Shown one piece after another: positions 27,801-30,800 of a DNA stretch of 64,000 nucleotides. Each line of letters starts with the position of its first letter. Within the stretch, counting starts at the first letter, position 1. Location: NCBI RefSeq assembly GCF_054482525.1, contig NZ_CM137006.1. One strand, written 5' to 3'. A program made the position numbers.

Positions 27801-30800
27801 AGAAAGTTTGTTTGCGCGACCGTATTTTTCTCCGTCCTTATCTGCGAAGAGGAAATAGAACGGCCCCTCACGCTCTACAGATGGTTCAGCTTCCGGCGCG
27901 GTTTCATTTTTTGGGATATCAGATACCTCAGTTTCCACTGCATCAGTTTGTGTTTCTGATGACTGGAGAACATCAACAGTGCCCTGGTCTGTTTCTTCAT
28001 TCTCAAACACGCCCTTTGTCGTCAGGTATTCGCAGATATATTTGTTCAGTGCTACGGGATCTTTGTGAATGTCGATCGGACGCTCACGGACAAGGCCAAA
28101 AATAGTTTGGCGGTCGTAGCGAAGGGCATCAGGCTGTTTGCGCATTGATGCCGAGATACGCTTCCAGTCTTCGCGGTCGTTGTCGATAACTTCTTTTTTT
28201 GCCCAGCGATGGATGCTGCCGTCAATGTTTCCGGCATCCACATCACCAGGCCAGAGAGCGTAGGCCAGTTCGTCATCCAGTGTTTTCCATGTCTGCTTGT
28301 ATTCGCGATGAATGGCAGCAATGACCGGGCTGATTTTTCCTGTTGAATTTTCAGTGTACTGTTGATTGGCTCTGGCGCGGGCGAGATCAACAACAGACGT
28401 GTATTTTCCGGTTTCCTTGCGTTCACCTTCGCGACGTTTTTTCCAGATGCGCATCTCTGCCTGAATTTCGGGCCATTTAGCACCAGGAATACATTTATGC
28501 TTAACCCACCCAATGGCGTGCAACTTAAGCTCCGGATACATGGCGTTAACTTCTGGCATTTTCATCAACGCTTCAACGATATGTCCGTCGAATGTTGCCA
28601 TGTCTTCCTGCAACAATTCCTGTGCGCTAATAACCATATCAACGGTGATGTTTTCACATGTGTCGAACTTAACCATGACAGCGTTCTGTACTTCAGGGGC
28701 CAGCTTGTCAAAAGTGACGTTCATCGGATCGGATTCAGTCTCAACCGGGACAAAAGAAGCAGACTCCTCATCCCAGCGGTTTTCCTGCATATATTCAGCA
28801 TCCCATGAATCGAGGGCAGGGCGGGGTATGCCAGGTTTATCCTCGCAGACAATAAATTTATAAGCGCAGTCCTGAGCAGCCGGATAATGTTCCAGGAACT
28901 GCCAGTGAAATTTTGCTCGAGCACGGCGTTCGTCGCCAGCTTCAATGGCTGTGGCTACAGCCACAGTGCCTTCTTCCCTTGTTGCCAGTTCGTCAGGAAT
29001 AGCGGCGCAAATAAAGACTTTACTCATTTTGTTTTAACCTCATGACAGATTTAAGGATGAACAAATCCCTGCCATTGCTGGCATATAAGAATGAAACCGG
29101 ATATTTATTACGGAACTGTTTTAAAGACCTGCCGGGATTTCGTTATTATCCTGGTGAATAACTTTATCGACCGGATAACAGTTGCCTGGAATTTTCTGTT
29201 CGGTTGCTGCTGCCATACATTCCTGCATTGTTCTGTGAACACTGACTGCAATATCAACTGGCTCTCCGGAAACAAGAAAAACCGTCAGAATAAGTGCAAA
29301 TACTGGATTCATTGTGCACATCCTTTTGGCATCAAACGTAAACGGGCCAGCATTGAAACAATGCATACTTTATTTAATAACTCCCGTTCGTGTTTTCTTT
29401 TGTTAATGGCATCTTCAGTAAATACAGGATTACTGATAGTGACACCAATTTCAAAACAACCTTCAGACGTATTAACGTTTGGTAATAACGTTTTCATTAT
29501 CGCGCCCTCAACAATGAGTTTTGTGATGCGGTGCCTGGTGCCTCCAGGTGACGTTAACCAGTTAACAATTAACGCCGGATACAGAGAATCCACCCATAAC
29601 ACTGTTTTTGGTTTTAACTGTTCCGCGTGCGCTTAGCCGCATTCACCGCATCACAAAATTCACTTTAAAAAGGGCGGCAGAGCAGTCACGGAGTAAAACT
29701 GATACCGCCAAACGTCACCAGAAAATTGATAACAGAGGGCGTTGCAGCGGGGTTGTCACTTAAGCGTATGGTCAACCTGACAACCCGGTGTCCTCAACGG
29801 GGAAGGAATAACCCCGCCATACTTACCGCCGCGCCATTTCGCGTAGTGCCACAACCGGAAGCGCACGGTCGACGAAAATTTAACGACAGGCTATCTATGA
29901 ACCAGCTACCTCGCCGTGCGCTTTCGCGTTATGGTCTGACTTTTCATGGAAATATCCTTTCAGTAAACTGTCAGTGCCGGATGCTCACCCGTGTCCGGCG
30001 CACGCACTCCACCTCACCCGTGGAGAACGCCTTAATTACCAACCTTAGCTTCGTTGGTTAGCTATTAACGCTGGTATGTAATCATTCTGGCAATGCTTAA
30101 TGCCGCTGCTTTTTCCAGCCTGGTGATATCCTGCTCCAGAGCGGACAGATTTTCAGCCTGCTTAGCCCTGGCTTCATTGGCCCATTTCAGATCCTGCGCT
30201 GCATTAATTTTCTGGCGCATCCACTCATAAAGTTCATCATCGGTATAGTCTGGCGCGATGATGACGGGTTCTCGTTTCTGCATACTGATTCCTCGCGGTG
30301 CTGCTTCGCTTATCAGCCGTTAGATTTTGCCGAGCTGGAAAGCGCCTGTTTAAACTCACTGAAGCTGAGAGCTTCTTCGCCTTCGGTAAGGCCTTCGAAG
30401 TATTCTTCGTAAGCCTTTTTCATGATTGTGTCGAAATCCATATCACTCACCTGAGTTTCTTTCCAGCCAGCGACGGGCACCATTTTCGGTTTTAAACGTT
30501 TTGCTTTTGGTATACGTCATCGCGGTGAATGTGCCGTCCTGGTTGGGAAACACGCCGTACACCAGAGATTCGTTGTTGCCAAGATCGATAGTATCCATGT
30601 TGACCTCATTTCCCCTTAACGCCGGGGTAGCGGAACAAAAACCTGCTGCATAGTTATTAAAGTTGAACCCTGCCGTCATGTTCTTACGCCTCGGGCTGGC
30701 TACTTAACCCCTGACCACTGCCTGGTAACTCGAAGTATTGCCCGGCGTTCTATGGGGCGGGGTGGGTTGGTATGCAATAAATCTAAAAGTATTTAGTTTT

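What the first reader, a model, noticed from the sequence alone, without database searches (positions are those of the whole stretch)
30313..30598. Two translationally coupled micro-ORFs (51 and 42 codons) directly downstream of the leftward early promoter
The YdaF-like 51-codon gene and an acidic 42-codon ORF are separated by 1 nt, both with good codon usage; the second is below the ORF-track size cutoff. The first genes of a lambdoid leftward operon are often small host-takeover, anti-defence or cell-division proteins (N, Kil, cIII class), so these are candidates for such a role.
Basis: partly seen in the sequence, partly recalled or inferred. Interest (0 to 1): 0.3.

Follow-up and report, generated by a model that had tools for sequence, protein, structure and literature searches.

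The report
Known prophage genes ydfA and ydfB
The two tiny genes are ydfA and ydfB, the long-annotated but still function-less first genes of the repressor-controlled dicBF operon of a Qin/Rac-type E. coli prophage; they are real and conserved, but ordinary.

Summary
On the minus strand, a 51-codon ORF (30443-30598) and a 42-codon ORF (30313-30441) are joined as TGA-T-ATG.

They are ydfA (DUF1391; 100% identical to K-12 YdfA) and ydfB (95% identical to K-12 YdfB). ydfC, the DicF sRNA, dicB and ydfD follow, so this is the dicBF operon. It is carried here behind a different, cI/LexA-type immunity region and a ~175-nt leader.

Both are genuine coding genes: pN/pS is 0.08 for ydfA, and dN/dS is 0.06-0.29 for the ydfB core between genera. 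They occur in 59-69% of complete E. coli genomes and are named by standard annotation.

They are not an obligate pair. ydfB is the first gene on its own in Salmonella, Citrobacter, Klebsiella and Cronobacter prophages, and Rac carries ydaF without ydfB.

Published K-12 work calls ydfABC "unknown function" and shows the operon is non-toxic without dicF and dicB. That argues against a Kil- or DicB-like role.

New here: the DUF1391 module recurs inside large phage and mobile-element proteins that carry DarA-N or ArdC-N anti-restriction domains. Its predicted fold is three β-strands plus a helix. This keeps an anti-defence or establishment role plausible but unproven.

Verdict: already known genes, low interest.

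The parts
30443..30598 (-). ydfA, 51 codons, DUF1391 family protein; first cistron of the operon
   Evidence: ORF and SD read directly. Pfam PF07151 98.5 bits against a cutoff of 27.3. 100% aa identity to K-12 YdfA and 82% to Rac YdaF. Annotated as a DUF1391 family protein in the near-identical genome NZ_CP031105. pN/pS 0.08.
30313..30441 (-). ydfB, 42 codons, acidic two-helix micro-protein; second cistron, starting 1 nt after the ydfA stop
   Evidence: 95% identical to K-12 YdfB. Annotated 'protein YdfB'. phrog_2061 E=2e-26. Core codons 7-35 have dN/dS 0.06-0.29 between genera. AF2 gives helices 3-17 and 27-39, pLDDT 86.
30599..30775 (-). Untranslated leader of ~175 nt between promoter and ydfA; C-rich 5' part, conserved 3' segment GTTCCGCTACCCCGGCGTTAAGGGG next to the SD
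   Evidence: Conserved upstream of ydaG in K-12 Rac and of ydfB in Citrobacter, with a related core in Klebsiella and Cronobacter. No Rfam hit. No stable or covarying fold: MFE z=+0.28.
30780..30808 (-). PL-type sigma-70 promoter-like site (TTGACT, 17 nt spacer, TAGATT)
   Evidence: Consensus scan. It is overlapped and flanked by the operator-like repeats. Function is inferred.
30779..30828 (.). Two operator-like repeats (AAATCTAAAAGTATTTAGTTT at 30779-30799; GAATCTAAATTAATTTA at 30812-30828), shared with the cI/cro divergent promoter region (31538-31558, 31586-31606)
   Evidence: the repeat finder families D1/D2 and inverted pairs I1-I4, I7.
30833..30853 (-). Intrinsic terminator-like hairpin plus T-run ending the repressor gene, just upstream of the operon promoter
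30875..31522 (-). cI/LexA-type repressor (HTH_3 + Peptidase_S24), unlike the short DicA of K-12 Qin
   Evidence: Pfam. Homology with K-12 Qin is lost ~40 nt upstream of the ydfA ATG.
31619..31846 (+). Cro-like regulator (P22_Cro), divergent from the repressor
   Evidence: Pfam 38.3 bits.
30065..30283 (-). ydfC, 72 codons, third cistron, unknown function
   Evidence: phrog_1744.
29672..29723 (-). DicF small RNA
   Evidence: Rfam RF00039, 76.7 bits against a gathering score of 48, E=2e-16.
29309..29497 (-). dicB, cell-division inhibitor
   Evidence: Pfam DicB 133.5 bits; annotated in L001.
29121..29312 (-). ydfD homologue (DUF1482; lysis protein in K-12)
   Evidence: Pfam 86.9 bits; K-12 annotation.
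26556..29027 (-). 823-aa exonuclease ending the operon (YdfE/ExoO type, C-terminal Rv2179c-like DEDD 3'-5' exonuclease domain)
   Evidence: Pfam PF16473 227 bits; annotated 'exonuclease'.

Best explanation
SHOWN. The two ORFs are ydfA and ydfB, the first two cistrons of the repressor-controlled early-left ('dicBF') operon of a Qin/Rac-type lambdoid prophage: promoter/operators, ~175-nt leader, ydfA, ydfB, ydfC, DicF, dicB, ydfD, exonuclease. Both encode real proteins kept by purifying selection. They are two independent, separately exchangeable accessory modules that happen to be packed head-to-tail.

INFERRED. They are silent in the lysogen and are made first when the repressor is removed or the phage enters a cell. 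The TGA-T-ATG junction, with an SD inside ydfA, lets ribosomes that finish ydfA start ydfB, so the two are made together.

INFERRED, MOST LIKELY FUNCTION.
- YdfA is a stand-alone copy of a ~50-residue three-strand-plus-helix binding module (DUF1391). Phages and mobile elements also build this module into large multi-domain 'polyvalent' proteins next to DarA-N or ArdC-N anti-restriction domains. It most probably binds a macromolecule (nucleic acid, or a host defence/repair protein) to help the incoming or induced phage genome establish itself.
- YdfB is an acidic two-helix hairpin with a conserved aromatic face. It most probably acts as a small protein-binding inhibitor or decoy.
- Neither is a growth or cell-division inhibitor.

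My confidence that the identity and gene status are right is about 0.98. My confidence in the establishment/anti-defence function is about 0.3.
For: Identity and context:
- Pfam DUF1391.
- 100% and 95% aa identity to K-12 YdfA and YdfB.
- PGAP annotation in a 99.8%-identical genome and in MG1655.
- DicF Rfam hit; DicB and DUF1482 Pfam hits.
- Literature description of the operon (PMC5069750, PMC10448788).

Promoter and operators.

Coding status:
- ydfA pN/pS 0.08, variable sites 1/5/20 by codon position.
- ydfB pN/pS 0.24-0.28, lowest of the six frames.
- ydfB core dN/dS 0.06-0.29 between Escherichia, Salmonella, Citrobacter and Cronobacter.
- Junction identical in 80/80 viral contigs.

Independence of the two genes:
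- ydfB alone is the first gene after the repressor in Citrobacter, Salmonella, Klebsiella and Cronobacter.
- Rac has ydaG-ydaF with no ydfB homologue.
- ydfA-like DNA is at 6107 places against 4108 for ydfB in 5426 E. coli genomes.

YdfA module:
- 230 family representatives, with nearly invariant G7 N8 E10 G15 G22 A26 T28 S32 F35 K36 T37 G40 A41 W44.
- Of 11 proteins >400 aa carrying the domain, 5 also have DarA_N and 2 have ArdC_N + DUF3560.
- Such polyvalent proteins are described as early-phase conflict effectors (PMC5512222).
- AF2 pLDDT 79, strands 15-18/24-27/32-35 and helix 38-49.
- In diverse phages the gene sits among repressors, antirepressors, methylases and other early genes.

YdfB: AF2 helical hairpin, pLDDT 86; invariant Y11 Y14 F15 F27 F30 plus acidic residues.

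Not toxic: the operon lacking dicF and dicB gives wild-type growth (PMC5069750 section 12).
Against: - There is no direct functional evidence of any kind.
- The domain-fusion argument is guilt by association. 4 of the 11 large proteins have no recognisable partner domain, and the polyvalent-protein paper does not name DUF1391.
- Profile comparisons with AP2 and CedA gave only 5% and 8% probability.
- YdfB has no relatives outside Enterobacteriaceae prophages, never occurs in a larger protein, and matches nothing in PDB, PADLOC or NCBIfam.
- I found no paper in the searchable library reporting translation or detection of either protein.
- Coupling is inferred from spacing only.
Confidence: 0.45

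Rival explanations
1. YdfA is a small DNA-, RNA- or RNA-polymerase-binding regulator of early phage transcription or of the lysis-lysogeny decision. It would occupy the slot that N occupies in lambda, rather than being an anti-defence factor. YdfB would be an accessory to it or unrelated.
For: - It is the first gene after PL, directly behind a conserved leader with a small hairpin next to the SD.
- Its predicted three-strand-plus-helix fold is closest to AP2/ERF and dsRBD domains, and weakly to phage HNH endonucleases in BFVD.
- There is a weak motif-level resemblance to the DNA/RNAP-binding protein CedA (G-x-F/Y-x-A ... S-x-x-F-x-T/V-x-x-x-A-x-R-W): hhalign P=0.004; Pfam CedA E=0.018 for 2 members.
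- The conserved face is basic (K33, K36, R42, R43).
Against: - None of these similarities is significant.
- There is no arginine-rich motif and no N-family hit.
- The gene behind the same leader is ydfA, ydfB or ydaG in different prophages, so the leader is not a dedicated site for YdfA.
- ydfA is absent from many otherwise similar prophages.
Confidence: 0.15
2. The ORFs matter mainly in cis. Their translation keeps the long polycistronic transcript covered by ribosomes, which protects it from Rho or RNases and sets how much DicF and DicB is made. The peptides themselves would be dispensable.
For: - The leader is C-rich and unstructured, i.e. rut-like.
- DicF is processed from the ydfABC-dicF transcript, and the upstream part is destabilised by RNase E (PMC10448788).
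- No phenotype is known for the proteins.
- The tight junction keeps ribosomes on the RNA.
Against: - There is strong amino-acid-level constraint: ydfA pN/pS 0.08; ydfB core dN/dS down to 0.06 with saturated synonymous change.
- DUF1391 is conserved in unrelated phages and inside large proteins that have no dicF.
- ydfB is kept in prophages whose downstream genes are kilR/gam rather than dicF/dicB.
Confidence: 0.1
3. They serve the lysogen rather than the phage: superinfection-exclusion or stress-tolerance factors, like DicB in the same operon.
For: - DicB from this operon protects against phage by blocking inner-membrane receptors (PMC6832061).
- ydfA and ydfB appear among many hits in an ASKA overexpression screen for H2O2/HOCl tolerance (PMC8228696).
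- The ydfA promoter responds to some stresses (PMC4077768; PMC10448788 abstract).
- The genes are retained in 59-69% of E. coli genomes.
Against: - The screen hits are unvalidated and numerous.
- The operon is tightly repressed in lysogens (22-fold by DicA).
- There are no PADLOC matches beyond a chance-level one.
- The genes also occur in viable temperate phages.
Confidence: 0.1
4. One reading: host-takeover proteins of the N/Kil/cIII class that arrest growth or division.
For: Their position at the head of a leftward early operon, their small size, and neighbours that are division inhibitors.
Against: - Inducing the K-12 operon without dicF and dicB gives normal growth, CFU and morphology.
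- The Keio ydfA filamentation was lost on marker excision.
- In a filamentation screen the region is explained by dicB/dicF.
- There is no sequence similarity to N, Kil, KilR or cIII.
Confidence: 0.05
5. An obligate two-protein unit (a complex, or a toxin-antitoxin-like pair) whose tight junction reflects a need for fixed stoichiometry.
For: The 1-nt junction is conserved in 80/80 close relatives and in K-12. One partner is acidic and the other near-neutral.
Against: - Each gene occurs without the other in many prophages.
- In Salmonella the ydfA leader and ATGGAT are fused precisely to ydfB.
- Neither is toxic.
- The two evolve at different rates.
Confidence: 0.05

Closest known systems
ydfA-ydfB of the dicBF operon, cryptic prophage Qin, E. 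coli K-12 (b1571, b1572)
   Same: The same genes. YdfA is 100% and YdfB 95% identical. The TGA-T-ATG junction is the same, the 40 nt before the ydfA ATG are the same, and the downstream order ydfC-dicF-dicB-ydfD is the same.
   Different: The immunity module is different: a 215-aa HTH+S24 repressor, a P22-Cro-like protein and other operators, instead of DicA/DicC. There is a long (~175 nt) leader instead of K-12's short one. The prophage here is not decayed at this end: it has an intact 823-aa exonuclease where K-12 has the ydfE pseudogene.
ydaG-ydaF of cryptic prophage Rac, E. coli K-12
   Same: YdaF is the DUF1391 paralogue (82% identity). Both lie at the head of the repressor-proximal leftward operon, and Rac has the same long leader as this window.
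   Different: The order is reversed: the other micro-ORF comes first. YdaG (44 aa) is not a YdfB homologue (32% over a forced alignment; separate PHROG). The two are 10 nt apart.
Polyvalent proteins of phages and conjugative elements (Iyer et al. 2017, PMC5512222) with DarA-N or ArdC-N domains
   Same: They contain a bona fide DUF1391 domain (61-81 bits) with the same invariant residues as YdfA.
   Different: They are 440-935-aa multi-domain proteins, thought to be delivered with or made right after DNA entry, and most carry a C-terminal RRGYxxDGxR extension that YdfA lacks. YdfA is the bare 51-residue module. No activity has been shown for the domain in either setting, and the paper does not mention DUF1391.
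Small early-left (PL operon) accessory proteins of lambda and P22: N, Ral, Kil, cIII
   Same: Operon position, small size, expression only after derepression. Ral is the precedent for an anti-restriction function in this operon (established knowledge; also listed in PMC5512222).
   Different: No sequence or family relationship. No arginine-rich motif. No toxicity, unlike Kil.
Three-stranded-sheet-plus-helix nucleic-acid-binding mini-domains (AP2/ERF GCC-box domain 1gcc/2gcc, TEM1 AP2 7et4; dsRBD; CedA 2bn8)
   Different: Not significant by Foldseek or by profile-profile comparison (AP2 5%, CedA 8% probability). The family signature GNNE..DGTF.A.T...SK.FKT..GA..W is unlike the AP2 signature.

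Membership tests
DUF1391 (Pfam PF07151; YdaF/YdfA family) | Score above the Pfam gathering threshold over the whole model | tested here: met
   98.5 bits against a cutoff of 27.3, model positions 1-48 of 48.
DUF1391 (Pfam PF07151; YdaF/YdfA family) | Family signature residues (GNNE ... DG.F.A.T...SK.FKT..GA..W) | tested here: met
   All 14 nearly invariant columns of the 85-sequence alignment (G7 N8 E10 G15 G22 A26 T28 S32 F35 K36 T37 G40 A41 W44) are present in the window protein.
YdfB micro-protein family (PGAP 'protein YdfB'; phrog_2061) | Sequence identity to K-12 YdfB and the conserved core KAYEEYF..L.EGEEALSF.EF..A.S | tested here: met
   95% identity to K-12 YdfB. phrog_2061 E=2.3e-26. 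Invariant M7 Y11 E12 Y14 F15 E20 E23 A24 S26 F27 E29 F30 A33 S35 are all present.
dicBF operon (Qin-type early-left operon) | Gene order ydfA-ydfB-ydfC-dicF-dicB-ydfD on one strand downstream of the repressor gene | tested here: met
   DicF 76.7 bits (GA 48), DicB 133.5 bits, DUF1482 86.9 bits.
dicBF operon (Qin-type early-left operon) | Promoter upstream of ydfA that is controlled by the adjacent repressor | tested here: inconclusive
   A promoter-like site overlaps repeats that recur in the cI/cro intergenic region. Repression itself was shown only for K-12 DicA/dicBp (PMC10448788) and is not testable here.
dicBF operon (Qin-type early-left operon) | DicA/DicC immunity genes | tested here: not met
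   The repressor here is a 215-aa HTH_3 + Peptidase_S24 protein and the Cro is P22_Cro-like. DNA homology with K-12 stops ~40 nt before ydfA. The operon is the same; the immunity module is not.
Translationally coupled gene pair | Stop and start codons overlapping or within a few nucleotides, with the arrangement conserved | tested here: met
   TGA-T-ATG. Identical spacing in K-12 and in 80/80 viral contigs.
Translationally coupled gene pair | Translation of the downstream cistron depends on translation of the upstream one | not testable with these tools
   This needs reporter fusions with upstream stop mutants. ydfB also has its own SD-like GGTGAG and is translated as a first cistron in Salmonella and Klebsiella prophages.
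Lambda N-type antiterminators | Arginine-rich N-terminal RNA-binding motif; membership of an N family | tested here: not met
   The only Pfam hit is DUF1391 for ydfA, and ydfB has none. YdfA has 3 Arg, all C-terminal; YdfB is acidic.
Kil/KilR/DicB-type division inhibitors; cIII | Sequence membership | tested here: not met
   No KilR, DicB or cIII family hit for either protein.
Kil/KilR/DicB-type division inhibitors; cIII | Growth arrest or filamentation on expression | not testable with these tools
   The literature argues against it: the K-12 operon induced without dicF and dicB gives wild-type growth and morphology (PMC5069750).
Anti-restriction / polyvalent-protein effector domains | Domain recurs in multi-domain proteins together with known counter-defence domains | tested here: met
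   DarA_N + DUF1391 in 5 of 11 large family members, and ArdC_N + DUF1391 + DUF3560 in 2 of 11; one more instance in a viral contig.
Anti-restriction / polyvalent-protein effector domains | Alleviation of restriction or another defence in vivo | not testable with these tools
   No experiment is reported in the searchable literature.
AP2/ERF-type DNA-binding domain | Sequence-profile relationship to AP2 domains | tested here: not met
   hhalign of the 85-sequence DUF1391 profile against five PDB AP2 domains: probability 5%. No Pfam AP2 hit for any of the 85 members, even at E<=10.
AP2/ERF-type DNA-binding domain | Three-stranded antiparallel sheet packed on a C-terminal helix | tested here: inconclusive

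The most novel reading that the evidence does not exclude
YdfA (DUF1391) is a free-standing version of a counter-defence module that phages and conjugative elements otherwise embed in DarA-N/ArdC-N polyvalent proteins. YdfB is an acidic decoy that inhibits a host nuclease or defence protein. If so, the head of the Qin/Rac early-left operon, present in about two-thirds of E. coli genomes, would encode two uncharacterised anti-defence (e.g. anti-restriction) micro-proteins.
Probability: 0.2. Interest if true: 0.55.

Novelty: already known. Interest (0 to 1): 0.17.

Why it matters
As found, it matters little. The genes are annotated in E. coli K-12 and in thousands of genomes, and the operon has been studied since the 1980s.

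What remains of value is that ydfA and ydfB are among the most widespread E. coli 'y-genes' with no function: 69% and 59% of complete genomes. They sit in the operon slot where lambdoid phages keep host-interaction and anti-restriction factors.

The link found here between DUF1391 and DarA-N/ArdC-N polyvalent proteins gives a concrete, cheap hypothesis to test: restriction or defence alleviation, or DNA binding. The strong purifying selection shows that a protein-level function does exist.

Tried and rejected
Searches and analyses that gave nothing useful:
- **PDB sequence searches** with YdfA, YdfB and both family profiles: nothing below E=0.01. The recurring weak match to the head-decoration protein gpD/SHP (E 0.4) is a 19-residue chance resemblance, and probably the source of a misannotation in phage records.
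- **Profile comparisons**: AP2 rejected (5%). CedA weak (P=0.004, 8%) and not pursued as membership.
- **PADLOC and NCBIfam**: nothing usable.
- **Literature**: no paper in the library gives a function or detection for YdfA, YdfB or DUF1391. The 'ydfA/ydfB' of IncI1 plasmids are unrelated name-sakes. The polyvalent-protein paper does not mention DUF1391, and its supplements are not held.
- **Genomic context of divergent stand-alone DUF1391 genes** in metagenomes: the contigs were too short to be informative. Contexts of the two polyvalent proteins were uninformative.
- **Conserved leader as a structured RNA** (put/nut-like): no Rfam hit, MFE z=+0.28, only 7 consensus pairs, no similarity to HK022 or other phages beyond close relatives. 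Rejected as a stably folded RNA element.
- **N-terminally extended ORFs** (78 aa and 56 aa): rejected as gene models.
- **Technical failures**: a related-locus search with a family alignment failed for lack of a conserved stretch. A CAI calculation failed because the index is not installed, so it was replaced by a rare-codon count.
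Full report
**1. What is in the sequence**

On the minus strand, a 51-codon ORF runs 30598->30443 and a 42-codon ORF runs 30441->30313. The junction is ...GGT GAG TGA T ATG GAT...: stop, one base, start, with a Shine-Dalgarno-like GGTGAG inside the end of the first ORF. The first ORF has GAGG seven bases before its ATG.

The mechanical ORF list gives longer versions: 78 aa from ATG 30679 and 56 aa from ATG 30483. The extra N-terminal part of the first lies in DNA that is unrelated in K-12 Qin and is closed by a stop in a Citrobacter relative. The 56-aa start has no SD and lies inside ydfA.

ORFs of this size are common by chance: 98 ORFs of >=25 aa overlap this 7-kb stretch. 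The case therefore rests on conservation, not on the ORFs existing.

**2. Identity**

- The 51-aa protein is a full-length DUF1391 protein: PF07151, 98.5 bits against a cutoff of 27.3.
- A 651-bp query across the region matches 4390 of 5426 complete E. coli genomes. The features under the match are annotated 'ydfA: DUF1391 family protein | ydfB: protein YdfB | ydfC'.
- A 99.8%-identical genome (NZ_CP031105) gives the local gene order: mtfA, tRNA-Ser, integrase, DUF4224, exonuclease, DUF1482, dicB, ydfC, ydfB, DUF1391, HTH repressor, Cro/CI, YdaT-family.
- Against MG1655, YdfA is 100% identical and YdfB 95% identical (K8E, T21A). Rac YdaF is 82% identical to YdfA. Rac YdaG is not a YdfB homologue.
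- Rfam finds DicF at 29672-29723, 76.7 bits against a gathering score of 48. Pfam finds DicB and the YdfD family DUF1482.

The finding is therefore the head of the dicBF operon, described in the literature as ydfA-ydfB-ydfC-dicF-dicB-ydfD(-ydfE). That literature calls ydfABC 'small proteins of unknown function' (PMC5069750, PMC10448788, PMC11430063).

**3. Promoter, operators and mosaic structure**

DNA homology with K-12 Qin begins only ~40 nt upstream of the ydfA ATG. Upstream of that point, this prophage has a different immunity module:
- a 215-aa HTH_3 + Peptidase_S24 repressor (30875-31522, minus strand);
- a P22_Cro-like gene and a YdaT-family gene on the plus strand.

A terminator-like hairpin (30853-30833) ends the repressor gene. 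It is followed by a sigma-70-like site: TTGACT, 17 nt, TAGATT (30808-30780). Two copies of an AATCTAAA..TTTAGATT-type repeat lie on and beside this promoter, and two more lie in the repressor/cro intergenic region. That is the arrangement expected for OL/OR operators of one repressor. So 'leftward early promoter' is a sound inference, though not a demonstration.

Between promoter and ydfA lies a ~175-nt leader, discussed in section 9.

**4. Are they real protein-coding genes?**

Across 83 loci (25 distinct ydfA sequences):
- mean pS is 0.137, pN is 0.010, and the ratio is 0.08;
- variable sites fall 1/5/20 on codon positions 1/2/3;
- no sequence has a stop;
- the other frames have stops in all sequences or ratios above 2.7, apart from the usual mirrored antisense frame.

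For ydfB (78 loci, 22-27 distinct sequences), the annotated frame again has the lowest ratio, 0.24-0.28.

Between genera, the conserved ydfB core (codons 7-35) has dN/dS of 0.06-0.29. For example, E. coli against Cronobacter shows 10 synonymous changes over 16 sites but only 5-7 non-synonymous changes over 71 sites.

Both genes are therefore under protein-level purifying selection, ydfA very strongly. ydfB has no rare codons; ydfA has one AGA and one CCC.

I found no paper in the searchable library reporting ribosome footprints or detection of either protein. Translation remains inferred.

**5. A pair, or two modules?**

In the 80 viral contigs most similar to the window, ydfB always follows ydfA at the same spacing. 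Outside that close group the two separate:
- In Citrobacter, Salmonella, Klebsiella and Cronobacter prophages, a YdfB homologue is the first gene after the repressor (or after an immunity-region insert) with no ydfA. The downstream genes may be sieB/kilR/ydaE or kilR/gam rather than dicF/dicB.
- In Salmonella, the ydfA leader and its ATGGAT are joined exactly to the ydfB reading frame.
- Rac has ydaG then ydaF.
- In complete E. coli genomes, ydfA-like DNA is found at 6107 places in 3723 genomes, and ydfB-like DNA at 4108 places in 3218 genomes.
- Some prophages replace both genes with an ECs_2282-family zinc-binding protein.

Recombination joints also fall inside the 3' end of ydfB, giving alternative C-termini after residue 34, and 29-aa minimal forms exist.

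The two genes are therefore independent accessory modules. The tight junction is packing, and probably co-translation, not evidence of a two-part machine.

**6. YdfA**

*Family and distribution.* An exhaustive HMMER search of 1.84 billion representatives found 230 relatives at E<=1e-3. The family signature is (D)LGNNE(S/T)..G....DGTF.ALT...SK.FKT..GA.RWL.RRG. Fourteen nearly invariant positions are all present in the window protein.

*Small proteins in phages.* Most members are small proteins. They occur in viable phages of Escherichia, Serratia, Pantoea and Salicola, among clusters of small early genes.

*Fusions.* Eleven members are proteins of more than 400 aa in which DUF1391 is an internal domain (61-81 bits):
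- five also carry DarA_N ('defence against restriction A');
- two carry ArdC_N plus DUF3560;
- four have no other recognisable domain.

These are the 'polyvalent proteins' that Iyer et al. describe as early-phase effectors of phages and conjugative elements (PMC5512222). That paper's text does not mention DUF1391, and only one paper in the library mentions the family at all.

*Context in diverse viral contigs.* In 11 divergent viral contigs, the neighbours include S24/HTH repressors, antirepressors (ANT, Rha, KilA-N), DNA methylases, Prim-Pol, and one further DarA_N fusion.

*Predicted structure.* AlphaFold2 on an 85-sequence alignment gives pLDDT 79, with strands 15-18, 24-27 and 32-35 and helix 38-49.

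*Fold comparisons.*
- Foldseek finds nothing significant in the PDB.
- Foldseek finds only weak hits in BFVD, some to phage HNH endonucleases.
- Profile comparison with AP2 gives 5% probability.
- Profile comparison with E. coli CedA gives P=0.004, 8% probability.

I therefore treat the fold as 'a three-strand-plus-helix binding module, relationship unresolved'.

**7. YdfB**

- The family is confined to Enterobacteriaceae prophages: Escherichia, Salmonella, Citrobacter, Cronobacter, Klebsiella, Enterobacter.
- Members are 29-42 aa and never part of a larger protein.
- The invariant core is M-x-K-A-Y-E-E-Y-F-x-x-L-x-E-G-E-E-A-L-S-F-x-E-F.
- AF2 predicts two helices, 3-17 and 27-39, at pLDDT 86.
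- Net charge is -5 to -7.
- There is no match in PDB, Pfam, PADLOC or NCBIfam.
- Its position at the head of the early-left operon is kept across genera.

**8. What the literature says about function**

- In K-12, a Plac-driven operon is lethal. Deleting both dicF and dicB restores wild-type growth, viability and shape even though ydfA, ydfB and ydfC are still induced (PMC5069750 section 12).
- The Keio ydfA mutant's filamentation disappeared when the kanamycin cassette was removed, so it was a polar effect (PMC7082316).
- ydfA and ydfB appear in long hit lists of an oxidant-tolerance overexpression screen, without follow-up (PMC8228696).
- ydfA mRNA rises in stationary phase, with an ionic liquid, and on derepression. 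The Rac paralogues rise 40-70-fold when RacR control is disturbed (PMC11014345), and that paper lists ydaFG as being of undetermined function.

**9. Mechanism**

*Shown:* identity, operon context, protein-level constraint, modular independence, and the domain fusions.

*Inferred:* repressor control of the promoter, co-translation through the 1-nt junction, and function.

My best reading is as follows. Both are early accessory proteins made first on derepression or infection. YdfA is a free-standing binding module of the kind embedded in DarA-N/ArdC-N polyvalent proteins, acting on nucleic acid or on a host defence/repair protein to help the phage genome establish itself. YdfB is an acidic helical hairpin acting as a small inhibitor or decoy.

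I put about 0.3 on this functional reading. The rivals are:

| Rival | Confidence |
|---|---|
| YdfA is a transcription or lysis-lysogeny regulator | 0.15 |
| Mainly a cis role of translation in protecting the dicF/dicB transcript | 0.10 |
| Benefit to the lysogen | 0.10 |
| An obligate pair | 0.05 |

The cis-only view is hard to square with dN/dS of 0.06-0.08 and with the family's presence in contexts that lack dicF. The host-arrest view is contradicted by the K-12 experiments.

**10. Novelty and score**

The genes, their order and their operon are already known and are routinely annotated. Nothing about the arrangement is surprising for a lambdoid prophage.

This analysis adds four things: quantified constraint, the demonstration that the pair is separable, a predicted fold, and the DUF1391-polyvalent protein link. 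These sharpen a hypothesis but do not change the category. Interest is low (0.17).

If the anti-defence reading were proven, it would assign a function to two of the commonest function-less genes of E. coli. I put its probability at about 0.2 and its interest if true at about 0.55.

Noticed in passing
window 30599-30775 (- strand); also L003 5455-5625 (-), L084 3836-4003, L091 3368-3503, L094 3370-3503: A ~175-nt leader between the PL-type promoter and the first gene is conserved across different immunity types and hosts. It sits in front of ydfA here, ydaG in K-12 Rac and ydfB in Citrobacter, with a related core in Klebsiella and Cronobacter. Its 5' part is C-rich and G-poor (ACCAACCCACCCCGCCCCA, rut-like). 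AAGTAGC..GCC.G..GC.TA.GAA and GCAGCAGG..GTTCCGC..CCCGGCGTTAAGGGG are near-invariant. There is no Rfam hit, no stable or covarying fold, and no conserved upstream ORF. Its role is unexplained (Rho attenuation? processing? protein binding?).
   Followed up: partly
L004-L083, 70-100 nt upstream of ydfA (e.g. L004, L009, L024); K-12 L002 2440-2508: A second, short leader class (including K-12 Qin) has CATCAA, then a hairpin at a fixed place whose stem sequence differs between prophages (ACACCGCACGGTGT / CAACGAACCGCATCGTTG / GCACAACGGTGC), then CAG..AGTTCCGC and the CCCCGGCGTTAAGGGG hairpin abutting the SD. The kept position with changed stems looks like a structural requirement (nut/boxB-like or a processing site).
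   Followed up: no
window 29520-29660 (- strand): A sub-threshold Rfam match to the Salmonella sRNA family STnc100 (38.8 bits, gathering score 47, E=3.6e-6) lies in the untranslated stretch between dicF and dicB.
   Followed up: no
window 30560-31850: There is a mosaic joint ~40 nt upstream of the ydfA ATG. The dicBF operon is attached here to a cI/LexA-type (HTH+S24, presumably SOS-cleavable) repressor and a P22-Cro-like gene, instead of K-12's DicA/DicC. At least 17 different upstream (immunity/promoter) types precede the same ydfA start among 79 related loci.
   Followed up: partly
window 26556-29027 (- strand): The 823-aa 'exonuclease' at the end of the operon carries a C-terminal Rv2179c-like DEDD 3'-5' exonuclease domain (227 bits) rather than a RecE-type nuclease. 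No RecT/Bet gene follows it: DUF4224 and the integrase come next. K-12 ydfE is the pseudogene remnant of this gene.
   Followed up: partly
phage records H45, H46, H48, H52, H54, H55 (e.g. PV340562.1 6593-6745; ON470583.1 7781-7933): YdfA is annotated as 'head-DNA stabilization protein D' in several deposited phage genomes. The only basis I can find is a 19-residue chance resemblance to the gpD/SHP head-decoration protein (PDB 1td0, E about 0.4). This looks like a propagating misannotation.
   Followed up: partly
L004, L007, L022 (ydfB 2658-2759 then divergent); proteins P0033, P0039, P0061, P0076: Recombination joints fall inside the 3' end of ydfB, giving alternative C-termini after residue 34 (…FKQAL|RIRMCSHN…). 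In Klebsiella and Enterobacter prophages, 29-aa minimal YdfB forms start at the internal Met7. The last 7 residues and the first 6 are therefore dispensable.
   Followed up: partly
E. coli genomes H21 (NZ_CM142792.1 1976428-1977069) and H22 (NZ_CP090327.1): In some prophages the ydfA-ydfB slot, between the conserved leader and ydfC, is occupied by an 'ECs_2282 family putative zinc-binding protein' instead. This is an alternative cassette at the same position.
   Followed up: no
proteins P0302, P0347, P0364, P0290, P0268 and others: Outside the enteric prophages, most DUF1391 domains continue into a conserved RRG(Y/L)xxDG(T/K)R(L/M) tail that E. coli YdfA and YdaF lack. P0347 has two DUF1391 copies. 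The Pfam model (48 positions) stops short of this tail.
   Followed up: no
window 24060-24135 (-) and 25127-25216 (+): tRNA-Asn(gtt) and tRNA-Ser(cga) lie here. The tRNA-Ser lies next to the integrase end of the prophage (as in NZ_CP031105, between mtfA and the integrase), so it is the likely attachment site.
   Followed up: no
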